Below, one piece after another: positions 14,659 to 36,371 of a DNA stretch of 42,420 nt. The DNA lies in the UHGV virus genome UHGV-0094761, one strand, 5' to 3'. The position numbers were made by a program, and so were the translations under genes. Every line of letters starts with the position of its first letter. Positions within the stretch are counted from its first letter, which is position 1. The stretch comes from a virus. Under the pieces are notes generated by a model. It saw only the letters and a list, made by a program, of their open reading frames with translations. It was not told the DNA's origin and searched no databases.

Positions 14659-14695
14659 AGACTAAACGGTATTCGAGACCGTTTAGTCTTCTTTG
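14659..14695 (+). terminator. Perfect 12-bp hairpin between convergent Q and the minus-strand cassette
   Basis: AGACTAAACGGT-attcgag-ACCGTTTAGTCT (14659-14689) followed by TCTTTGG; overlaps the 3' end of the minus-strand gene ending at 14683. Confidence 0.5.
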
Positions 14696-15081
14696 GCTGT
14701 ACCGGAAGGTATAACTTCAACAGTTTTACCAATATTGACAATCTTCCTAACGGTTTCCTCACGGTCTTGAATTAGCTCAGCTCTAAATTTCTCACTTACG
14801 TGCGGGCTTTTCAATTGTTCGTCGATGCCCTTCAAATCTCTTTCAAGCCTATTCCGTAGGGCTGCTTCAGCTGGTGATTCAAGTCCATGTCGATTAATAA
14901 CGTACATCATTACGTAGGTTATCCCAGCAGAAACTAAAGGCGCGAGAGCGTATAAGAAAGGACGCCACTCACTGTTCTGTTCTGGCGCGACAAGAGGAAC
15001 TAAAGTCGTCAAAACAGCACCAAGGCCCCCAGTAGTGAGTCCAGAGTTGGTGCTTAACATATTTTTCTTATCGTCGCTCAT
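14683..15081 (-). CDS. Cassette gene 3: small membrane protein (132 aa, two predicted TM helices, charged C-terminal domain)
   Basis: Hydrophobic segments GLGAVLTTLVPLVA and FLYALAPLVSAGITYVMMYVI; start overlaps the upstream stop (ATGA at 15078-15081); AT-rich. Confidence 0.6.
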   Translation of the reverse strand: MSDDKKNMLSTNSGLTTGGLGAVLTTLVPLVAPEQNSEWRPFLYALAPLVSAGITYVMMYVINRHGLESPAEAALRNRLERDLKGIDEQLKSPHVSEKFRAELIQDREETVRKIVNIGKTVEVIPSGTAKED

Positions 15082-15350: not shown

Positions 15351-16232
15351 CTATATCAATTTTTTCCCCTGCATCACTCGATGCCGAAGTACTTTTTTTA
15401 TAACGTACTTTTCGGTCTTTCCTCGCGCTGAAGTGGTACGGGTTGTTTCTAAAAGGACAGAGAACATATCCTCACTAGTTACAGTCCCCTCGGCCATCCT
15501 TACTTTAGCTAAAAACTCATAGTCTGTAAGTAGTACGGAATGCTCCTCTTGGTTGTAATCCATTCTCCAGCCTTTCTCGCTGTGGAAATTAACCTGAGTA
15601 AACTTAACATTAACTTCTTTTTCTTCAACGGTTTTTGTCAGCAGCGTTCCTCTTGGAAGCGGCTTAATTTCCTCGGTCTGATCTCCTTCGAGTTTCACCA
15701 GTACTTCGTCATTTCCATCTACTATTTTGAAAACAGGAGACTCTTTTCCTTCAAGTGGACCTTGAACAACAGAGATCAAAGCATCACGAATCACTGGCTC
15801 GGTTACAAGAGTGGCAACAGCTGACGGGCATTCGATATCTCCATCTTCAAACTCAAGGACTGCCATATCTGTTCCAGCTTTTTTAGTTACCGAAACGACC
15901 TTTTTCGACCCCAACTGCCTAATCAAAGACAACGCACTAGCATGTGCAGCCGCACCAACAGTTCCCACTATCCCAATAGTTTTTAGAACATCTATTGCAT
16001 CAGGTAAAAGTTGCACAACAGTATAAGCAATACCAACTGAACCTTTCTTGAGTGGGGCAGAAACTAAGACCTTAACCGATTTATTGCCATCGTTTAATAA
16101 ATCATCGGCTTTGTTAATTAGTGTCGTCATGGAAAGTATTGATTTTCCAAGATCTTCTGCGTCAATCGCGTGTTTCGACAATTCTTTATCATCGGCGTCA
16201 TAAAACACCTTAAAGGAAGTAGACTTCTCCAT
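15351..16232 (-). CDS. Cassette gene 1: soluble 293-aa protein of unknown function
   Basis: AAGGAAAG RBS before ATG at 16232; no recognisable catalytic motif by eye; AT-rich, unlike the surrounding phage genes. Confidence 0.65.
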   Translation of the reverse strand: MEKSTSFKVFYDADDKELSKHAIDAEDLGKSILSMTTLINKADDLLNDGNKSVKVLVSAPLKKGSVGIAYTVVQLLPDAIDVLKTIGIVGTVGAAAHASALSLIRQLGSKKVVSVTKKAGTDMAVLEFEDGDIECPSAVATLVTEPVIRDALISVVQGPLEGKESPVFKIVDGNDEVLVKLEGDQTEEIKPLPRGTLLTKTVEEKEVNVKFTQVNFHSEKGWRMDYNQEEHSVLLTDYEFLAKVRMAEGTVTSEDMFSVLLETTRTTSARGKTEKYVIKKVLRHRVMQGKKLI

Positions 16233-16844: not shown

Positions 16845-17897
16845 ATGAAAAGTACTGTAAAAATAAACAGTGTTGAGTTAATCAACGCTGATAGCCTGCA
16901 TTACGTCGCCACCCTCCCGGATAACTCTATTGATCTGATAGTTACGGATCCGCCGTATTTCAAAGTGAAACCCAACGGCTGGGACAACCAATGGAAGGGG
17001 GACGAGGACTACTTACGCTGGCTTGATAGCTGTCTGGCTGAGTATGCTCGCGTTCTTAAACCTGCTGGCAGCATTTACCTGTTTTGCGGTCACCGACTGG
17101 CCTCAGATATAGAGATTATGATGCGTGCCCGGTTCAACGTTTTGAATCACATAATTTGGGCAAAACCATCAGGCCGCTGGAATGGATGTAACAAAGAAAG
17201 CCTGCGTGCGTACTTTCCATCTACGGAACGGATTTTGTTTGCTGAGCACTATCTTGGGCCGTATACAGGTAAAGAGGATGTTTACGAAAGGAAAAGCACA
17301 GAGCTAAAGCAGCACATTATGACGCCGCTGATTGATTACTTCCGTAATGCCCGTGAATCACTGGGTGTCAGCTCGAAAGAAATAGCTGAGGCAACAGGAA
17401 AGAAAAACATGGCGTCACACTGGTTTGGTGCAAGCCAATGGCAACTACCAAATGAAGTGGACTATAGAAAATTGCAGGAACTGTTCACGCGGATCGCTAT
17501 CGATAAGCACATTGAGCAGAAACTTGAACATCCTCACCACCAGCTGGTAGCTACCTATCAGTCATTAAACCGCAAGTATTCAGAATTGCTGGAGGAATAC
17601 AAAACTCTCCGGCGCTGCTTCTCTGTCTCCGCTCTAGTTCCGTATACCGACGTATGGACGCATAAGCCTGTTCAGTTTTATCCGGGCAAACATCCATGCG
17701 AAAAACCTGCCGACATGCTGAAGCAGATCATTAGCGCCAGCAGCAGGCCGGGGGATATCGTTGCCGATTTCTTTATGGGCTCTGGTTCAACTGTGAAAGC
17801 AGCAATAGAACTTGGCCGTCGGGCGATCGGTGTAGAACTGGAGGAAGACAGGTTTATACAGACCACCGAAGAGGTGGAAAAACTGAAAAAATCATAA
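16845..17897 (+). CDS. DNA methyltransferase (beta-class N6-adenine/N4-cytosine, orphan)
   Basis: 350 aa; catalytic DPPY motif (VTDPPYF) near the N-terminus and AdoMet-binding FxGxG (DFFMGSGSTV) near the C-terminus; no adjacent restriction endonuclease. Confidence 0.8.
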   Translation: MKSTVKINSVELINADSLHYVATLPDNSIDLIVTDPPYFKVKPNGWDNQWKGDEDYLRWLDSCLAEYARVLKPAGSIYLFCGHRLASDIEIMMRARFNVLNHIIWAKPSGRWNGCNKESLRAYFPSTERILFAEHYLGPYTGKEDVYERKSTELKQHIMTPLIDYFRNARESLGVSSKEIAEATGKKNMASHWFGASQWQLPNEVDYRKLQELFTRIAIDKHIEQKLEHPHHQLVATYQSLNRKYSELLEEYKTLRRCFSVSALVPYTDVWTHKPVQFYPGKHPCEKPADMLKQIISASSRPGDIVADFFMGSGSTVKAAIELGRRAIGVELEEDRFIQTTEEVEKLKKS

Positions 17898-18042: not shown

Positions 18043-18321
18043 ATGACCAGAATGAGCACCATTTACAGCAGACTTTCATATGGATCAGGAACCACGCTTG
18101 CCGGCTGCGGTGTATCAGCGAAGGCATATGCCGAAACAGCTAAAACAGCAAAAGAGGTGTCCTGGATGTTGGCCGACAGAATTGCAGGGTTAAGCCTGAG
18201 CGACTGGGCAATTATTGTCGGTATCGCATGCACCGTTATTACCTGTGCAGTGAACTGGTATTTCCGCTGGAAAGAACGGGAGGATCGTCGCAATGGCTAT
18301 GCCACCAAAGCTGAAGAATAA
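18043..18321 (+). CDS. Holin (pinholin, S21-like) with dual-start motif
   Basis: 92 aa; N-terminal MTRM dual-start pattern; TM helix AIIVGIACTVITCAVNWYF; charged C-terminus REDRR; GGAGGTGAGG RBS; precedes a SAR endolysin. Confidence 0.7.
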   Translation: MTRMSTIYSRLSYGSGTTLAGCGVSAKAYAETAKTAKEVSWMLADRIAGLSLSDWAIIVGIACTVITCAVNWYFRWKEREDRRNGYATKAEE

Positions 18322-18841
18322 ACTGAGCGCAGCGGTCGTTGGTTTGATTCTTGCGGGGGCTTCTGCACCTGTGATTCTCGATCAGTTTCTTAATGAGAAA
18401 GAGGGTAATAGCCTTACGGCATACCGCGACGGTGGCGGACACTGGACCATTTGCCGTGGCGCCACGATGGTTGATGGTAAGCCAGTAGTTCAGGGCATGA
18501 AGATGTCTTCTGAGAAATGCGCCCGGGTGAACGCCATAGAACGCGATAAGGCGCTGGTGTGGGTTGAGAGAAATATCAAGGTACCACTGACCGAACCACA
18601 GAAAGCCGGGATTGCTTCTTTTTGCCCATATAACATCGGCCCGGGAAAATGTTTCCCGTCCACGTTCTATAAGCGAATTAATGCTGGTGACCGTATTGGC
18701 GCGTGTGAAGCGATCCGCTGGTGGATTAAAGACGGTGGCCGCGACTGTCGTCTGACCAAAGGCCAGAAAAACGGCTGCTATGGGCAAGTAGAACGGCGAG
18801 ACCAGGAAAGCGCGCTGACGTGCTGGGGGATAGACCAGTGA
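18293..18841 (+). CDS. SAR endolysin (lysozyme, glycoside hydrolase family 24)
   Basis: N-terminal signal-anchor-release domain ([19 protein letters not shown]) then the E-x8-D-x5-T lysozyme catalytic pattern ([22 protein letters not shown]). Confidence 0.85.
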
Positions 18842-19365
18842 GCCTGCGCTATCAGTTCATTGCCATTTCGGTGCTGGTGGCCGTCGCATTTATCGCCGGA
18901 AACGTATGGAGCAATCGCGGCTGGGAAAAGAAGTGGGCTGAACGTGACAGCGTGGAATCATCGCAAACAGCGAACGCCCAGACCGCCGCCCGCATGATCG
19001 AACAAGGGCGTATTATTGCCCGTGATGAGGCTGTAAAAGATGCACAAGCACAAGCCGCTAAATCTGCTGCCACTGCTGCTGGCCTGTCTGCCACTGTTAA
19101 CCAGCTGCGCACCGAAGCAACAAAGCTTGCCGCCCGCCTGGACGCCGCAAAGCACACCGCAAATCTTGCCGTTGCCGTCAGAAGCAAGACAGCCGGAGCC
19201 CATGCCAGAATGCTCGCCGACATGCTCGGAAGTATTGCAGCAGAAGCTAAACGATATGCTGGAATCGCTGATGAGCGCTATGCCGCCGGGATGACGTGTG
19301 AACGCGTTTATGACCAAGTGAGAGAGTCAAATAACAACATGGTTGACCACATAGTGAAGCGTTGA
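18838..19365 (+). CDS. Rz-like i-spanin
   Basis: N-terminal TM ([15 protein letters not shown]) followed by an Ala/Gln-rich coiled-coil periplasmic domain; GTG at 18838 overlaps the endolysin stop; contains the embedded Rz1 ORF. Confidence 0.7.
19040..19294 (+). CDS. Rz1-like o-spanin (lipoprotein) embedded in Rz in the +1 frame
   Basis: 84 aa; lipoprotein signal with lipobox LLTSC; proline-rich mature part; wholly embedded in the Rz gene, as in lambda Rz/Rz1. Confidence 0.65.
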
Positions 19366-19405
19366 AAACTGGTATGATTAGGCTTCACTTTTCGGTGGTG
19401 GGATT

Positions 19406-19939
19406 ATGAGAAAAGAAATAACGGTAAGCAATGCTAAGCATGAGGCAGGTCATTGGATAACGGGTTGGATACTTGAAAAGGCAAGCGAGGACATAGTCAT
19501 TGCCACAACCATAGTGGGCGATTCATATTGTGGTCGTGCCCCTCATCCGGATTTTGTTGATTTACAACAAATTAACTTTCATCTGGGTAACCGGGTTATC
19601 AACTTACTCAGCGGAGCTATATCCGAAAGCCTTGTATGTGGAGAATTTAATCGTGAGATATATAAGCATCTCATTGGCGATTACAAAGGAGCATGGCCAG
19701 ATTTTTTTATGGCTTCTGAGTTGTTCCGCTACTATTACAGGTCGTTGCATTCCTCTGAACGAGGGTCATTTGAAGAAGAGTGGAATCTTCTAATTACGAA
19801 AGCTGAAAAAATAATTAAGCAGCATGAAATGTTTATCAATCATGTAGCAAATGAAGCTATCCGACGCCTGTCCGTCGAACAATCACAAATAACATTGTCG
19901 CAAGTTGATGTGCTAGAAATATTAAAGAATAACTCGTGA
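19406..19939 (+). CDS. Stand-alone FtsH-like (M41-type) zinc metallopeptidase domain protein
   Basis: 177 aa; N-terminal AKHEAGHWITGWIL resembles the FtsH protease-domain motif AYHEAGHALVGWLL, and LLSGAISESLVCGEF resembles FtsH LYGGRLAEEIIYG; no AAA+ domain; AT-rich; GGTGGTGGGA RBS. Confidence 0.6.
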   Translation: MRKEITVSNAKHEAGHWITGWILEKASEDIVIATTIVGDSYCGRAPHPDFVDLQQINFHLGNRVINLLSGAISESLVCGEFNREIYKHLIGDYKGAWPDFFMASELFRYYYRSLHSSERGSFEEEWNLLITKAEKIIKQHEMFINHVANEAIRRLSVEQSQITLSQVDVLEILKNNS

Positions 19940-20000
19940 TGAACATTCACTGAATTCCTAGGATAATGTTATATATGCTACTCTAGAAAGCGGAGGGGCA

Positions 20001-20204
20001 ATGAATATTAAAAAATACTGGTTTTTTTCATGGGTTGCTTATGACTCAGTAACGGGTGAAAAGTTACTTGAATATTCCGGTTCTGATACTTTCACCTCTG
20101 AGGAGGGAGTTAGTGCAGTTGAGGTTTTTGAGAGTTTAATGAGTGACTTTGAATCGAGAAGAGAAAATCTGAAAATACATTGCATTGCATTCAATCCTAT
20201 CTAA
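20001..20204 (+). CDS. Small acidic hypothetical protein (67 aa) paired with the peptidase
   Basis: GGAGGGG RBS; AT-rich; followed by a terminator. Confidence 0.45.
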   Translation: MNIKKYWFFSWVAYDSVTGEKLLEYSGSDTFTSEEGVSAVEVFESLMSDFESRRENLKIHCIAFNPI

Positions 20205-20208
20205 ATAA

Positions 20209-20234
20209 AAAGCCTCGCGTATGTGGGGCTTTTT
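20209..20234 (+). terminator. Rho-independent terminator after the peptidase module
   Basis: GCCTCG-cgtatg-TGGGGC stem followed by 6 T (20229-20234). Confidence 0.55.
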
Positions 20235-20348
20235 TATGCGCATCGCACGCGCACATCAAAGAGAGTCTTTCAGTAGTGAGCCTGGGTAAACCGTTAACTC
20301 TTGGCGGCTTTGCCGTGCGAAAGGCTCACGTCTAAAAGGAAACCCCTC

Positions 20349-21008
20349 ATGAAATATTTATCGCTGCAGCAGGCAATGCTGGGCATGCGCGTAACAATGA
20401 CCGACGACGGCCTGATTCTCAAAAGTCCTGCAGGTAGCGCACACTACGATTTAAAAGGTCGCCGCCATGCAGTTTGGGGTGATGCTTCTTTCTTCCCTGA
20501 ACATCTACGTGTGAAAGATAAACGCAAACCGAAAGGTGGCCACGTCAGTTATGGCAATGGCGAAATCGTTGGCTATCGGACTGATGGTTCTATTGCCTGG
20601 CGAATGGGGAAGTTCGAAGAACCTACAAAAACGCCGAAGCCGAAGACCAGCAATGACAGCATCGATGTTAGCAAGATTCTTGACGATGCATGGAGAAGTG
20701 GTCGCCCTCTTGTCGGGGAGGCAGTTAACGATCTGGCTGAGGCTATAGCAAATGCCAGGGCATGCTCTCAAAGCTATCAGCAACATGCCTGCGGCGGTGA
20801 GACAACACCATCTACCTATACCGTATCTATCGGTATTAACTGCAACAATGAAGCCCATACTTCTGGTATCGGTAGCAACATCTATAGCATTCTGAAAAAT
20901 GCACTGGCGCGCGATAAAGCAATGCCTGATTTTGAAGAGACCATCCGTAAAGCCATCCAGAAAGAATGTCAGCCCGGTGGACTGATCTGGAATTCCCGCA
21001 GTCGTTAA
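20349..21008 (+). CDS. Hypothetical phage protein (220 aa) upstream of cos
   Basis: Start at ATG 20349 (MKYLSLQQ...) with an AAGGA RBS; the track's longer start at 20301 lacks an RBS. Confidence 0.55.
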   Translation: MKYLSLQQAMLGMRVTMTDDGLILKSPAGSAHYDLKGRRHAVWGDASFFPEHLRVKDKRKPKGGHVSYGNGEIVGYRTDGSIAWRMGKFEEPTKTPKPKTSNDSIDVSKILDDAWRSGRPLVGEAVNDLAEAIANARACSQSYQQHACGGETTPSTYTVSIGINCNNEAHTSGIGSNIYSILKNALARDKAMPDFEETIRKAIQKECQPGGLIWNSRSR

Positions 21009-21059
21009 TTTTTACGTGTAAATGGTAACTATTATCGTTTGCGGGTCCTTTCCGGCATA

Positions 21060-21260
21060 TCGGCGCGCTACGGGGCGGCGACCTCGCAGATTCTCGCTAT
21101 TTATGAAAATTTTCTGGCATTTGCCGTTTCCGTTCTTCTTCTCGCTAATTCATTGTTTTAACTGCAAACACCCCTGAAAAGAAAGGAAACGATAAGCCTT
21201 AAAAACGGCTAAATAACTAGAGGGCGTTTCCTTTCTCTGTTTTCGTGCATGGAGTGAGCT
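21060..21260. promoter_or_regulatory. cos site (lambda-type cosN with 12-nt cohesive end, plus cosB-like region)
   Basis: GGGCGGCGACCT at 21073-21084 is identical to the lambda cohesive end; the downstream block up to Nu1 (...CGCTATTTATGAAAATTTTC..GTTTCCGTTCTTCTTC...) closely resembles the lambda left end as I recall it. Confidence 0.7.
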
Positions 21261-21806
21261 ATGGAGGTCAACAAAAAGCGTCTTTCTGAAATATTTGGGG
21301 TCAGCGTGCGAACCATTCAGAACTGGCAGGATCAGGGAATGCCTGTAGCACGTGGTGGCGGAAAAGGTAATGAGGTCCTCTATGAATCTTCCGCGGCTAT
21401 TGAATGGTATTCCGCACGCGACGCGGCGATTGAGAATGAGAAATTACGCAAGGAGGTGGAAGACCTTCGTCTTGCATCGGAATCCGACCTCCAGCCAGGT
21501 ACGATTGACTATGAGCGTCACCGCCTTACCCGGGCGCAGGCAGACGCCCAGGAACTAAAAAATGCAAAAGATTCCGCTGAGGTGGTGGAAACCGCATTCT
21601 GCACGTTCGTGCTGTCGCGGATGGCCGGAGAAGTAGCCAGCATTCTTGATGGAGTTCCTCTGTCGGTTCAGCGGCGCTTCCCGGAGCTGGAAAACCGACA
21701 TATTGATTTCCTCAAGAAGGACATCATTAAGGCCATGAACAAAGCAGCTGCGCTGGATGAAATAATACCGGGGTTGCTGAGTGAATATATCGAACAGTCA
21801 GGTTAA
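21261..21806 (+). CDS. nu1: Terminase small subunit (lambda Nu1 homologue)
   Basis: 181 aa; near-identical to lambda Nu1 over most of its length as I recall it (MEVNKK.L..IFG.S.RTIQNWQ.QGMPV.RGGGKGNEVLY...). Confidence 0.9.
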   Translation: MEVNKKRLSEIFGVSVRTIQNWQDQGMPVARGGGKGNEVLYESSAAIEWYSARDAAIENEKLRKEVEDLRLASESDLQPGTIDYERHRLTRAQADAQELKNAKDSAEVVETAFCTFVLSRMAGEVASILDGVPLSVQRRFPELENRHIDFLKKDIIKAMNKAAALDEIIPGLLSEYIEQSG

Positions 21807-35930: not shown

Positions 35931-36371
35931 ATGTTTAGAGGTATGGCAGTATCTATGTTAGCTGTGGTTATTTTGAGTGGTTGCTCTAATCAAGAGGCCA
36001 TCAAAAAACACACTGCATCTGGTAAACCTGAAGCGGAATATCCAGGTAAAACTAAAGAACAGGTAAAGGACGCGTTAGTTTCTTATTGTAACCAAAAAGG
36101 ATTGTCAGTATTTGAATCTACAGAATCACTTGTAATATGTGGAAAGCAGACTGATAGCGTATTGGCACAAATGCTCGTGGGTAATTCATATTCAACCCCA
36201 TCTATGGCAAAGATTAGATTTACTATAGCTTCGGTAAATAATGCCCCGAAAGTATGGAGTGATATGTGGATTGAAAGCCAAATGCCAGGAGGACAGTTAA
36301 ATCAGATGCCATCAAAAAATAATACAGATATTAACTCAGTGCAAAATATGCTTGATAATCTACAGCCATAA
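35931..36371 (+). CDS. Lipoprotein moron inserted between K and I (unknown function)
   Basis: 146 aa; signal peptide with lipobox LSGC; strongly AT-rich; has its own terminator; lambda has no gene at this position. Confidence 0.6.
   Translation: MFRGMAVSMLAVVILSGCSNQEAIKKHTASGKPEAEYPGKTKEQVKDALVSYCNQKGLSVFESTESLVICGKQTDSVLAQMLVGNSYSTPSMAKIRFTIASVNNAPKVWSDMWIESQMPGGQLNQMPSKNNTDINSVQNMLDNLQP

What the first reader, a model, noticed from the sequence alone, without database searches (positions are those of the whole stretch)
19380..20240. Stand-alone FtsH-like HEAGH peptidase domain plus small acidic partner in an AT-rich module after the lysis cassette
The 177-aa protein (19406-19939) carries, 12 residues from its N-terminus, a motif (AKHEAGHWITGWIL) very close to the zinc-binding motif of the FtsH protease domain, and a second FtsH-like stretch further on, yet it has no AAA+ ATPase domain or TM anchor. 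It is followed by a 67-aa acidic protein and a terminator, and the module is markedly AT-rich compared with the adjacent lysis and packaging genes. A minimal M41-like peptidase as phage cargo could be a toxin or effector (a protease-based abortive-infection or anti-host factor) with the small protein as partner or inhibitor.
Basis: partly seen in the sequence, partly recalled or inferred. Interest (0 to 1): 0.7.

Follow-up and report, generated by a model that had tools for sequence, protein, structure and literature searches.

The report
Stand-alone FtsH-type zinc peptidase moron
A lambda-like prophage carries a small, self-contained cargo gene for a protease that is just the zinc-cutting domain of the FtsH protease, without FtsH's ATP motor or membrane anchor. 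Its relatives sit in prophage cargo slots and next to known anti-phage systems, so it is an untested candidate immunity protease, and the small neighbouring gene is not its dedicated partner.

Summary
ORF 19406-19939 encodes a 177-aa soluble protein whose HEAGH motif is a genuine FtsH-type (M41-fold) zinc site.
- H12, E13, H16 and D99 are invariant in 35 homologues down to about 20% identity.
- D99 aligns with FtsH's third zinc ligand in a shared G-A-x-x-D motif.
- There is no AAA+ module and no membrane anchor.

The module is AT-rich (GC 0.39 against 0.51) and ends in a strong terminator.

- The 67-aa acidic gene is a separate cassette. It occurs at 93% DNA identity in sister prophages behind quite different cargo, such as a PD-T4-6/Stk2-like kinase plus PP2C.
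- The peptidase gene occurs elsewhere with other neighbours, or alone with its own terminator, including at other phage positions (Klebsiella baseplate and tail regions).
- A -10 box, with an upstream TG in five of the six, lies 33-36 nt before the start codon in 6 of 8 lineages.

The gene is therefore a single-gene moron. Distant homologues lie beside CBASS, Mokosh, Lamassu, Dsr2 and restriction genes. It matches no known defence family and no literature was found.

Best reading: an ATP-independent prophage peptidase acting in phage-host conflict, with a Lit-like role as a hypothesis. The function is untested.

The parts
18820..19365 (+). Rz-like spanin gene (DUF2514), the last gene of the lysis cassette. 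It forms the left flank of the cargo slot. An embedded Rz1-like lipoprotein ORF lies at 19040-19294.
   Evidence: Pfam DUF2514 E 3.4e-43. ORF list. Shared at 83-92% DNA identity, up to about 19337, with sister prophages that lack the peptidase gene.
19338..19944 (+). Peptidase cassette: the stretch absent from sister prophages that share both flanks.
   Evidence: blastn of window 18801-21300 against L028, L030 and L032: homology stops at 19337 and resumes at 19945.
19370..19378 (+). Putative extended -10 promoter element, TGgTATGAT (hexamer at 19373-19378), 33 nt before the start codon.
   Evidence: A -10-like hexamer lies at -33 to -36 in 6 of 8 lineages, 5 of them with an upstream TG. This includes lineages whose upstream DNA is unrelated (L011, L007). 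It is a pattern match only; transcription is not shown.
19406..19939 (+). Gene for the 177-aa stand-alone M41-fold (FtsH-type) zinc metallopeptidase domain.
19439..19453 (+). Codons for H12-E13-A14-G15-H16: the HEXXH zinc-binding and catalytic motif.
   Evidence: H12, E13 and H16 are invariant in alignments of 15 and 35 sequences. They align with E. coli FtsH HEAGH, which starts at residue 414 in the RefSeq protein.
19625..19627 (+). Codon for E74, the conserved Glu of the G-A-x-x-E helix. It is equivalent to the Glu in FtsH G-G-R-L-A-E-E.
   Evidence: Invariant in the close family and nearly invariant when aligned with FtsH.
19688..19702 (+). Codons for G95-A-W-P-D99. D99 is the predicted third zinc ligand.
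   Evidence: D99 is invariant in 35 homologues. G95 and D99 align with G-A-S-N-D of E. coli FtsH.
19940..19967 (+). Promoter-like site (TGAACA, 16-nt spacer, GATAAT) in front of the 67-aa gene, at the start of its own cassette.
   Evidence: Consensus scan. The region from 19945 travels with the 67-aa gene in other prophages. Function is not shown.
20001..20204 (+). 67-aa acidic protein of unknown function. It is an independent neighbouring cassette (19945-20223), not a dedicated partner.
20207..20238 (+). Intrinsic terminator that closes the AT-rich module.
   Evidence: 12-bp stem, -15.8 kcal/mol, z -4.85, then a U run. The homologous stretch is annotated 'terminator' in phage HK639.
21261..21806 (+). 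Nu1 small terminase gene, the right flank of the cargo slot.
   Evidence: Pfam Phage_Nu1 E 1.2e-93.

Best explanation
ORF 19406-19939 is a single-gene moron, meaning horizontally acquired prophage cargo with its own promoter. It sits at the lysis/packaging junction of a lambda-like prophage, most likely of Citrobacter. It encodes only the protease domain of the FtsH (MEROPS M41) fold.

Shown here:
- The fold.
- An invariant H-E-x-x-H ... E ... G-A-x-x-D metal site.
- The absence of an AAA+ unfoldase and of a membrane anchor.
- Mobility of the gene as a lone cassette.
- Independence from the 67-aa gene.

Inferred:
- It is an active, cytoplasmic, ATP-independent zinc endopeptidase. Lacking an unfoldase, it can only cut exposed or unstructured segments of a specific target.
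- It is transcribed from its own extended -10 promoter in the lysogen, and also by read-through of the late operon.
- Its role is in phage-host or phage-phage conflict. The most likely version is prophage-encoded protection of the lysogen, working like the Lit protease of prophage e14: cleavage of a host or invader protein once a superinfecting phage is present.

In this window the transcript probably continues through the unrelated 67-aa gene to the terminator at 20207-20238.
For: Fold and active site:
- H12, E13, H16 and D99 are invariant across 35 homologues of 17-41% identity.
- The alignment to E. coli FtsH places D99 on the GASND Asp.

Stand-alone architecture:
- All 40 hits in 1.84 billion representative proteins are 60-246 aa, and none is a full-length FtsH.

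Moron features:
- GC 0.40 against 0.51.
- A -10 box at -33 to -36 in 6 of 8 lineages, with an upstream TG in five of them.
- Its own terminator directly after the stop codon in L011, L021 and the Klebsiella phage L048.
- Patchy presence at the Rz|terminase junction, behind at least three different lysis cassettes and in front of two terminase types.
- Other insertion sites in Klebsiella phages.

Conflict context:
- The identical slot in sister prophages holds a PD-T4-6/Stk2/mad6-like kinase, E 7e-36 to 7.5e-24 for the three named models.
- Distant homologues lie directly beside a CBASS phospholipase+cyclase, Mokosh MkoB, a type IV restriction enzyme, HEPN_AbiU2, Dsr2 and Lamassu LmuA/B. A type II restriction-like protein and a mad8-like protein lie within four genes.
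Against: - No functional data of any kind.
- No match to any PADLOC defence model.
- Defence-island association is guilt by location. It was measured on 15 loci with crude ORF calling and no matched control, and several of those loci are orthologous.
- The promoter is only a pattern match.
- The gene lies in the late-operon orientation 40 bp after Rz, so a role during lytic growth (counter-defence or host takeover) fits equally well.
- Metal-site geometry in the model could not be inspected.
- The oligomeric state is unknown.
- Pfam M41 scores below its gathering threshold.
Confidence: 0.45

Rival explanations
1. Phage-benefit protease. The peptidase is made late in lytic growth, by read-through of the late operon. 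It cleaves a host protein (a defence effector, protease or regulator) or a competing phage's protein, so it works as counter-defence or host takeover rather than lysogen protection.
For: - Same strand as the late operon and 40 bp downstream of the last lysis gene, with no terminator in between.
- The family is frequent in temperate phage genomes.
- The catalytic residues are conserved.
Against: - A -10 box at a conserved position and the gene's own terminators indicate an autonomous unit typical of lysogen-expressed morons.
- Distant homologues lie in bacterial defence islands next to CBASS, Mokosh, Lamassu and Dsr2, rather than in phages. That is unusual for anti-defence genes.
- Late expression is too late to counter most early-acting defences.
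Confidence: 0.2
2. One reading: a two-gene toxin/effector plus partner module, in which the 67-aa acidic protein inhibits or assists the peptidase.
For: - The two genes are adjacent, both AT-rich, probably co-transcribed, and share one terminator in the window.
- The pair also occurs in a diverged lineage, with the peptidase at 63-66% and the small protein at about 50% identity (L010, L017-L020).
Against: - The 67-aa cassette occurs at 93% DNA identity behind unrelated cargo with no M41-like gene, confirmed by tblastn.
- The peptidase gene occurs with four other kinds of downstream neighbour, or with none and its own terminator.
- The cassette boundary falls exactly between the two genes, at 19944/19945.
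- A 61-bp spacer containing a promoter-like site separates them.
Confidence: 0.1
3. FtsH mimic. The free protease domain joins or competes with the host FtsH hexamer, or with its substrates and adaptors. That would alter turnover of FtsH-controlled proteins such as lambdoid CII/CIII-type regulators.
For: - Its only structural relatives are FtsH protease domains, which in FtsH form the hexameric ring. The C-terminal helices are retained.
- The host is a lambdoid prophage, whose lysis-lysogeny choice depends on FtsH. This is established knowledge for lambda and was not tested here.
Against: - Only 18-20% identity to FtsH, so this is not a recent capture.
- A decoy would not need its catalytic His, Glu and Asp, yet these are invariant.
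- Homologues occur in non-lambdoid contexts and in bacterial defence islands.
- The FtsH segment between the Asp-ligand helix and the C-terminal helices is missing.
Confidence: 0.07
4. An ordinary accessory of lysis or virion assembly, for example a processing protease for a lysis or head protein.
For: It lies between the lysis and packaging genes in most enterobacterial examples.
Against: - It is absent from sister prophages with the same lysis and packaging genes.
- It is found behind different lysis cassettes and at unrelated positions, in baseplate and tail clusters.
- Distant homologues are in non-phage DNA.
- Its base composition is atypical.
Confidence: 0.03

Closest known systems
FtsH / AFG3L2 / YME1 protease domain (MEROPS family M41, Pfam PF01434)
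   Same: - Same order of elements: the HEXXH helix, two beta strands, the G-x-x-x-E helix, the G-A-x-x-D helix carrying the third ligand, and the C-terminal helices.
   Different: - No AAA+ ATPase, no transmembrane or periplasmic part, and no C-terminal tail.
- About 20% identity, with a Pfam score below the gathering threshold.
- It lacks the FtsH insert after the Asp helix and has about 9 extra residues between HEXXH and Asp.
- It is encoded as mobile cargo rather than a housekeeping gene.
PDB 5IQJ, an uncharacterised 131-134-aa Vibrio cholerae protein (structural genomics). Also UniProt 'Peptidase M41 domain-containing protein' A0A6J5RJ76 (214 aa, uncultured Caudovirales).
   Different: No function is known for either. 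5IQJ is shorter. Both are only distant in sequence. Neither has been linked to prophage morons or defence islands, as far as the searched literature shows.
Lit protease of the defective lambdoid prophage e14 (Peptidase U49). It cleaves EF-Tu when T4 late peptide Gol appears (from established knowledge).
   Same: A functional analogy only: a single prophage-encoded HEXXH zinc protease that acts without ATP in phage exclusion.
   Different: No detectable homology: no U49 hit among the Pfam matches at E below 1, and a different fold family. The trigger and target of the present protein are unknown, and the analogy is a hypothesis.
ImmA/IrrE/CapP metallopeptidases (Pfam Peptidase_M78)
   Same: Small HEXXH zincins on mobile elements and beside defence systems. 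They act as specific, ATP-independent cleavers of one partner protein.
   Different: No M78 hit and no M78 structure among the fold matches. No adjacent HTH repressor gene, which is the substrate in those systems.
PHROG 36675 (phage protein family of unknown function)
   Same: The window protein matches it at E 2.7e-13 over residues 8-153.
   Different: The family carries no annotation, so the match adds no functional information.

Membership tests
Peptidase family M41 (FtsH-type protease domain) | HEXXH zinc-binding/catalytic motif on the active-site helix | tested here: met
   H12, E13 and H16 are invariant in alignments of 15 and 35 sequences. They align to E. coli FtsH HEAGH.
Peptidase family M41 (FtsH-type protease domain) | Third zinc ligand: an Asp on a later helix (the G-A-x-N-D motif of FtsH) | tested here: met
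   D99 is invariant in 35 homologues. GAWPD aligns with GASND of E. coli FtsH. The ligand's identity in FtsH comes from established structural work, not from a test here.
Peptidase family M41 (FtsH-type protease domain) | M41 protease-domain fold | tested here: met
   [not shown]
Peptidase family M41 (FtsH-type protease domain) | Score above the curated Pfam PF01434 / NCBIfam FtsH thresholds | tested here: not met
   Pfam 18.9 bits against a cut-off of 29.9. TIGR01241 13.2 bits against 600.
FtsH proper (ATP-dependent membrane protease) | N-terminal transmembrane segments and an AAA+ ATPase module fused to the protease | tested here: not met
   The protein is 177 aa. HEXXH starts at residue 12 and the ORF cannot extend upstream. 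All 40 family hits are 60-246 aa.
FtsH proper (ATP-dependent membrane protease) | Hexameric ring, zinc binding, proteolytic activity | not testable with these tools
   Needs biochemistry (SEC-MALS, ICP-MS, peptidase assay).
Two-gene toxin-partner (TA-like) module | The two genes are inherited together across homologues | tested here: not met
   The 67-aa gene occurs without the peptidase in L028-L036. The peptidase occurs without the 67-aa gene in L001-L009, L011, L015-L016, L021-L022, L024-L026 and L048.
Moron (autonomous cargo unit in a phage genome) | Present or absent between otherwise homologous phage genomes; atypical base composition; own promoter and terminator | tested here: met
   Presence/absence with sharp borders at 19337/19945. 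GC 0.40 against 0.51. Terminators in L011, L021 and L048. A -10 box at -33 to -36 in 6 of 8 lineages; the promoter is a pattern match only.
Known anti-phage defence families (PADLOC-DB v2) | Sequence match to a defence-system model | tested here: not met
   No hit for the window protein. Only four single-member matches among the 35 homologues, each a weak hit to a different model at E >= 0.0035.
Defence-island resident (candidate defence gene) | Homologues recurrently adjacent to known defence systems | tested here: met
   Neighbours are CBASS, Mokosh, a type IV REase, HEPN_AbiU2, Dsr2, Lamassu, a type II REase-like protein and a mad8-like protein, in 8 of 15 non-phage loci. The same prophage slot holds a PD-T4-6-like kinase. 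No matched control was run.
Defence-island resident (candidate defence gene) | Protection against phage when expressed | not testable with these tools
   Requires phage challenge assays.
ImmA/IrrE (M78) and Lit (U49) prophage metalloproteases | Sequence or fold membership | tested here: not met
   Neither family appears among the Pfam hits at E below 1 or among the fold matches.

The most novel reading that the evidence does not exclude
The family is a new single-gene anti-phage system: an ATP-independent FtsH-fold zinc protease. It circulates between prophage moron slots and bacterial defence islands. It would protect the lysogen by cleaving a host or invader protein on infection, giving Lit-like abortive infection or exclusion.
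Probability: 0.3. Interest if true: 0.75.

Novelty: new variant of a known kind. Interest (0 to 1): 0.55.

Why it matters
FtsH-type proteolysis is thought of as inseparable from its AAA+ unfoldase and membrane anchor. This is a small family in which the bare protease domain has been kept, with all catalytic residues intact. The family numbers 40 representative clusters among 1.84 billion, and its members sit on mobile cargo in prophages and next to CBASS, Mokosh, Lamassu and Dsr2.

If the protein is active, it shows how an M41 site works and is controlled without ATP. If it protects lysogens, it adds a new protease-based immunity gene. That gene would also be a compact, easily testable 177-aa model, with clear mutants available (H12A, E13Q, D99A). 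The work also corrects the module's anatomy: there are two, probably three, independent cassettes stacked in one hotspot, not one operon.

Tried and rejected
- Single-sequence searches of solved structures gave only chance-level hits (MAGE, PACSIN), with AFG3L2 at E 0.77. The close-family profile gave AFG3L2 at only E 0.23. The wider profile was needed to reach significance.
- The search for related loci with the 35-sequence alignment failed because no stretch was conserved enough.
- The single genome-contig scan returned one weak partial locus, L012, which had no convincing ORF.
- The viral scan with the P0070 group found nothing.
- The afdb50 fold library was unavailable.
The complex therefore remains untested.
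- I tested whether the alternative downstream genes are disguised relatives. The 159-aa and 185-aa TM proteins are not similar to each other. The 63-aa (L024) and 60-aa (L011) ORFs do not match a profile of the 67-aa family. None of these proteins hits PADLOC.
- Six literature searches found no description of a stand-alone M41 peptidase in phages or defence. Three papers were checked for FtsH passages. Those passages concern the FtsH AAA+ module, the extracellular domain of IetA, or lambda CIII.
- DNA searches show the module is absent from 5,426 complete E. coli genomes and from deposited phage genomes. Only the terminator region matches.
Full report
**1. What is at the coordinates**

The window is a complete lambda-like prophage. 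Its landmarks are:
- a CI-type repressor (Peptidase_S24);
- a Q antiterminator;
- an N6/N4 DNA methylase at 16845-17897;
- a holin at 18043, a lysozyme at 18293 and a Rz-like DUF2514 gene at 18820-19365;
- Nu1 at 21261 and the large terminase at 21781.

ORF 19406-19939 (+) is 177 aa with HEAGH at residues 12-16, and ORF 20001-20204 (+) is 67 aa. The 177-aa ORF starts at the first start codon after an in-frame stop, only 40 bp after Rz, so there is no room for an AAA+ or membrane part.

The small protein is acidic, with pI 4.6. GC is 0.401 and 0.348 for the two genes, against 0.511 for the window and 0.535 for the lysis genes. GC3 is 0.37 and 0.31, against 0.53-0.57.

A 12-bp hairpin followed by a U run sits at 20207-20238 (-15.8 kcal/mol, z -4.85). 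The homologous stretch in phage HK639 is annotated as a terminator.

**2. Is the HEAGH a real FtsH-type site?**

Sequence evidence is weak on its own but consistent:
- Pfam Peptidase_M41 is the only hit (E 0.0015, 18.9 bits, below the 29.9 cut-off).
- NCBIfam FtsH scores E 0.028.
- 11 of 35 family members hit M41, best E 1.3e-6, and no other family recurs apart from four weak M50 hits.
- A profile of 35 homologues hits the Aquifex FtsH protease domain 2di4 at E 8.5e-4. The hit comes in two collinear pieces covering the HEXXH-to-GxxxE region and the C-terminal helices. The same profile also hits a stand-alone V. cholerae protein of unknown function, 5IQJ.

Structure settles it. The AlphaFold2 model built on 15 homologues has pLDDT 88 and pTM 0.85.
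- The first 41 Foldseek matches in the PDB are all FtsH, AFG3L2, YME1 or chloroplast FtsH/FtsHi chains.

Conservation agrees. In the close family (15 sequences, 42-97% identity), H12, E13, H16, E74, D99 and E105 are invariant. In 35 sequences down to about 17-20% identity, the only invariant positions are H12, E13, H16, R63, G70 and D99.

Aligned with E. coli FtsH taken from MG1655:
- HEAGH matches HEAGH.
- LLSGAISE matches LYGGRLAE.
- G95-A-W-P-D99 matches G-A-S-N-D. From established FtsH structural work, this segment carries the third zinc ligand.

It differs from FtsH in three ways: it has about 9 extra residues between HEXXH and the Asp, it lacks the FtsH segment that follows the Asp helix, and it is only about 20% identical.

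**3. How big is the family?**

It is small and always stand-alone.
- The word-indexed search found 16 clusters, named only as 'hypothetical protein' from Citrobacter freundii and Mixta calida.
- An exhaustive profile search of 1.84 billion representatives found just 40 proteins at E <= 1e-3. All are 60-246 aa and none is a full-length FtsH.
- PHROG 36675 (unknown function) matches at E 2.7e-13.
- BFVD contains a 214-aa 'Peptidase M41 domain-containing protein' from an uncultured phage.

The architecture therefore exists in databases, but I found no paper that describes or tests it.

**4. Is the 67-aa protein a partner?**

No. Three lines of evidence point the same way.

First, the gene following the peptidase varies. 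I surveyed the ORF after every homologue found on contigs:
- the 67-aa family, in the window and L013/L014, and in a diverged lineage (L010, L017-L020);
- a 159-aa protein with an N-terminal TM segment (L001-L006, L015, L016);
- an unrelated 185-aa TM protein (L007-L009, L026);
- an unrelated 63-aa ORF (L024/L025);
- nothing, with an intrinsic terminator directly after the stop codon (L011, L021).

Second, the 67-aa protein (99% identical cluster P0056, on 41 contigs from Salmonella and Citrobacter) was looked up in its own right. It sits at the same Rz|Nu1 junction behind a protein kinase plus PP2C phosphatase (L030, L032) or behind a 74-aa plus 120-aa pair (L028 and 14 similar places). A 55%-identical homologue, P0059 (L036), has no called gene in the gap upstream. 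None of these loci has any tblastn match to the peptidase.

Third, blastn shows sharp cassette borders. Sister prophages share window DNA up to about 19337 and again over 19945-20223 (93% identity), with nothing shared in between.

The peptidase gene (19338-19944) and the 67-aa gene with its terminator (19945-20223) are therefore separate, independently exchanged cassettes. The second cassette carries a promoter-like site at 19940-19967. Stretch 20332-20963, holding most of the ORF read from the ATG at 20349, is a third insertion absent from the sister prophages.

The one point in favour of a link is that the pair recurs in a diverged lineage. I leave about 10% for a facultative functional relation.

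**5. The peptidase gene is a moron**

The gene shows all the hallmarks of an autonomous cargo unit.
- It is AT-poor in GC relative to its surroundings in every enterobacterial lineage: 0.385-0.41 against 0.46-0.53.
- A -10-like hexamer lies at -33 to -36 from the start codon in 6 of 8 lineages. It is preceded by TG (an extended -10) in five of them, including L007, whose upstream DNA is unrelated to the window's; L011, also unrelated, has a consensus TATAAT without the TG. The chance of any such hexamer in the 34-nt window was 0.09-0.37 per sequence in shuffles. In the window it is TGgTATGAT at 19370-19378.
- Terminators directly follow the gene in L011, L021 and Klebsiella phage ST11-OXA48phi15.1.
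- The gene sits behind at least three different lysis cassettes and in front of Nu1/GpA-type or Terminase_3-type packaging genes.
- In Klebsiella temperate phages, homologues of about 30% identity lie elsewhere. One is inside a Mu-like baseplate cluster and another lies between a KilA-N gene and the tape-measure gene. Both keep HEAGH and the GGAxxD motif.

This variable position and variable presence exclude a lysis or assembly role. The promoter itself is inferred, not shown.

**6. What is it for?**

Direct evidence is lacking. The arguments are contextual.

(a) The very slot occupied by the peptidase gene in this window holds, in sister prophages, a Ser/Thr kinase matching the defence models mad6, PD-T4-6 and Stk2, with E from 7e-36 to 7.5e-24.

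(b) Distant homologues (20-30% identity) are mostly not in phages. Their neighbours are:
- Rhizobium L037: the gene follows a CBASS phospholipase effector and cyclase by 28 bp, next to a second CBASS with E1/JAB genes.
- L038: it follows Mokosh MkoA/MkoB.
- L044: it precedes a type IV restriction enzyme.
- L041: it lies two genes from HEPN_AbiU2.
- Orthologues of the L038 gene sit next to Dsr2 in L051 (E 7.6e-155), Lamassu LmuA+LmuB in L055 (E 1.6e-69 and 3.3e-129) and a type II REase-like protein in L053. A more distant homologue (26% identity to P0070) sits near a mad8-like protein in L062.
- Among 51 neighbouring ORFs of 11 further loci, the PADLOC and Pfam hits also included PDC-S02, PDC-S68, a type II methyltransferase, Mrr_cat (twice), ABC-3C components, HEPN_Toprim_N and DUF4411 with Peptidase_M78. 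An integrase and a transposase were also present.

Thus 8 of 15 non-phage loci have a recognised defence system within four genes. Orthologous peptidase genes sit beside different systems, which is the signature of a defence hotspot.

Caveats:
- ORFs were called crudely.
- The loci are not all independent.
- No matched control was run.
- The protein matches no PADLOC model itself.

**7. Mechanism proposed**

The following steps were shown here:
- the M41 fold;
- an intact metal site;
- a soluble 177-aa protein;
- a lone mobile gene;
- defence-type neighbourhoods.

The following steps are inferred:
- The protein binds zinc through H12, H16 and D99, with E13 as the general base.
- Without an unfoldase, it cleaves only accessible, unstructured segments, so it acts as a specific endopeptidase rather than a bulk degrader.
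- It is made in the lysogen from its own promoter, and late in induction by read-through.
- Its cleavage of a host or incoming-phage protein limits superinfecting phages. This is analogous to, but not homologous with, Lit of prophage e14.

I put about 0.9 on the molecular identity, about 0.75 on 'autonomous single-gene moron', and about 0.35-0.4 on lysogen-protective defence. That gives 0.45 for the statement as a whole.

The rivals are:
- a phage-benefit counter-defence or takeover protease expressed late (0.2);
- an FtsH mimic or decoy (0.07), disfavoured because a decoy need not keep its catalytic residues;
- a lysis or assembly accessory (0.03).

**8. Novelty and verdict**

The fold and chemistry are known. 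An AAA-less, anchor-less M41 domain is visible in databases (5IQJ and a few 'M41 domain-containing' entries) but is uncharacterised. Its distribution as prophage moron cargo and as a defence-island resident has not been described in the literature I could search. I rate it a new variant of a known kind, with moderate to good interest (0.55). The hypothesis is sharp and cheap to test, but no function has been demonstrated.

Noticed in passing
window 19945-20223: The 67-aa gene with its promoter-like site and terminator is a mobile cassette in its own right. It is shared at 93% DNA identity with Salmonella and Citrobacter prophages, where it follows unrelated cargo. The family is tiny (4 clusters) and its function is unknown.
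   Followed up: yes
window 20332-20963 (ORF 20301/20349-21008): A third cassette lies between the terminator and nu1 and is absent from the sister prophages. The ORF (235 aa in the mechanical ORF list, 219 aa from the ATG at 20349) has no Pfam or PADLOC hit. Its first 91 residues are 93% identical to hypothetical proteins of Escherichia phage CharmingMan, and it weakly resembles a 'Fur regulated protein' of phage Fraca.
   Followed up: partly
window 15351-16232 (-): An AT-rich (GC about 0.38-0.43) 293-aa gene on the opposite strand, between the Q antiterminator and the methylase. It matches the PADLOC candidate single-gene defence family PDC-S42 (E 1.5e-29) and has no Pfam hit. The adjacent 132-aa ORF at 14683-15081 (-) has no hits.
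   Followed up: partly
window 35931-36371 (+): A 146-aa ORF in a strongly AT-rich patch (GC 0.37), inserted among the tail genes just before the J-like fibre gene. It has no Pfam or PADLOC match and is probably another moron.
   Followed up: partly
L030:2285-3846 and L032:1410-2914: Sister prophages carry a Ser/Thr kinase (PD-T4-6/Stk2/mad6-like, E down to 7e-36) plus a PP2C phosphatase in exactly the slot that holds the peptidase gene in the window.
   Followed up: partly
L001-L006, L015, L016 (gene called at L001:6001-6591): The public gene call for the 79%-identical homologue (196 aa) probably starts too early. Its first codons (ATGATT...) overlap the conserved TGtTATGAT -10 box, and the family start corresponds to its Met12.
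   Followed up: partly
L027:5995-6327; proteins P0013 (131 aa) and P0015 (135 aa): Truncated copies of the peptidase gene exist, one covering residues 73-174 only. They suggest decay of the cargo gene in some prophages.
   Followed up: no
L051-L057 compared with L038: Orthologous peptidase genes (53-59% identical to P0070) sit next to different defence systems in different metagenome contigs: Mokosh, Dsr2, Lamassu and a REase. This looks like one variable defence hotspot that keeps the peptidase gene.
   Followed up: partly
window 19040-19294 (+): An Rz1-like o-spanin ORF is embedded in the +1 frame of the Rz-like gene. It has a lipobox-like L-T-S-C after a signal sequence. This is ordinary for lambdoid lysis cassettes.
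   Followed up: no
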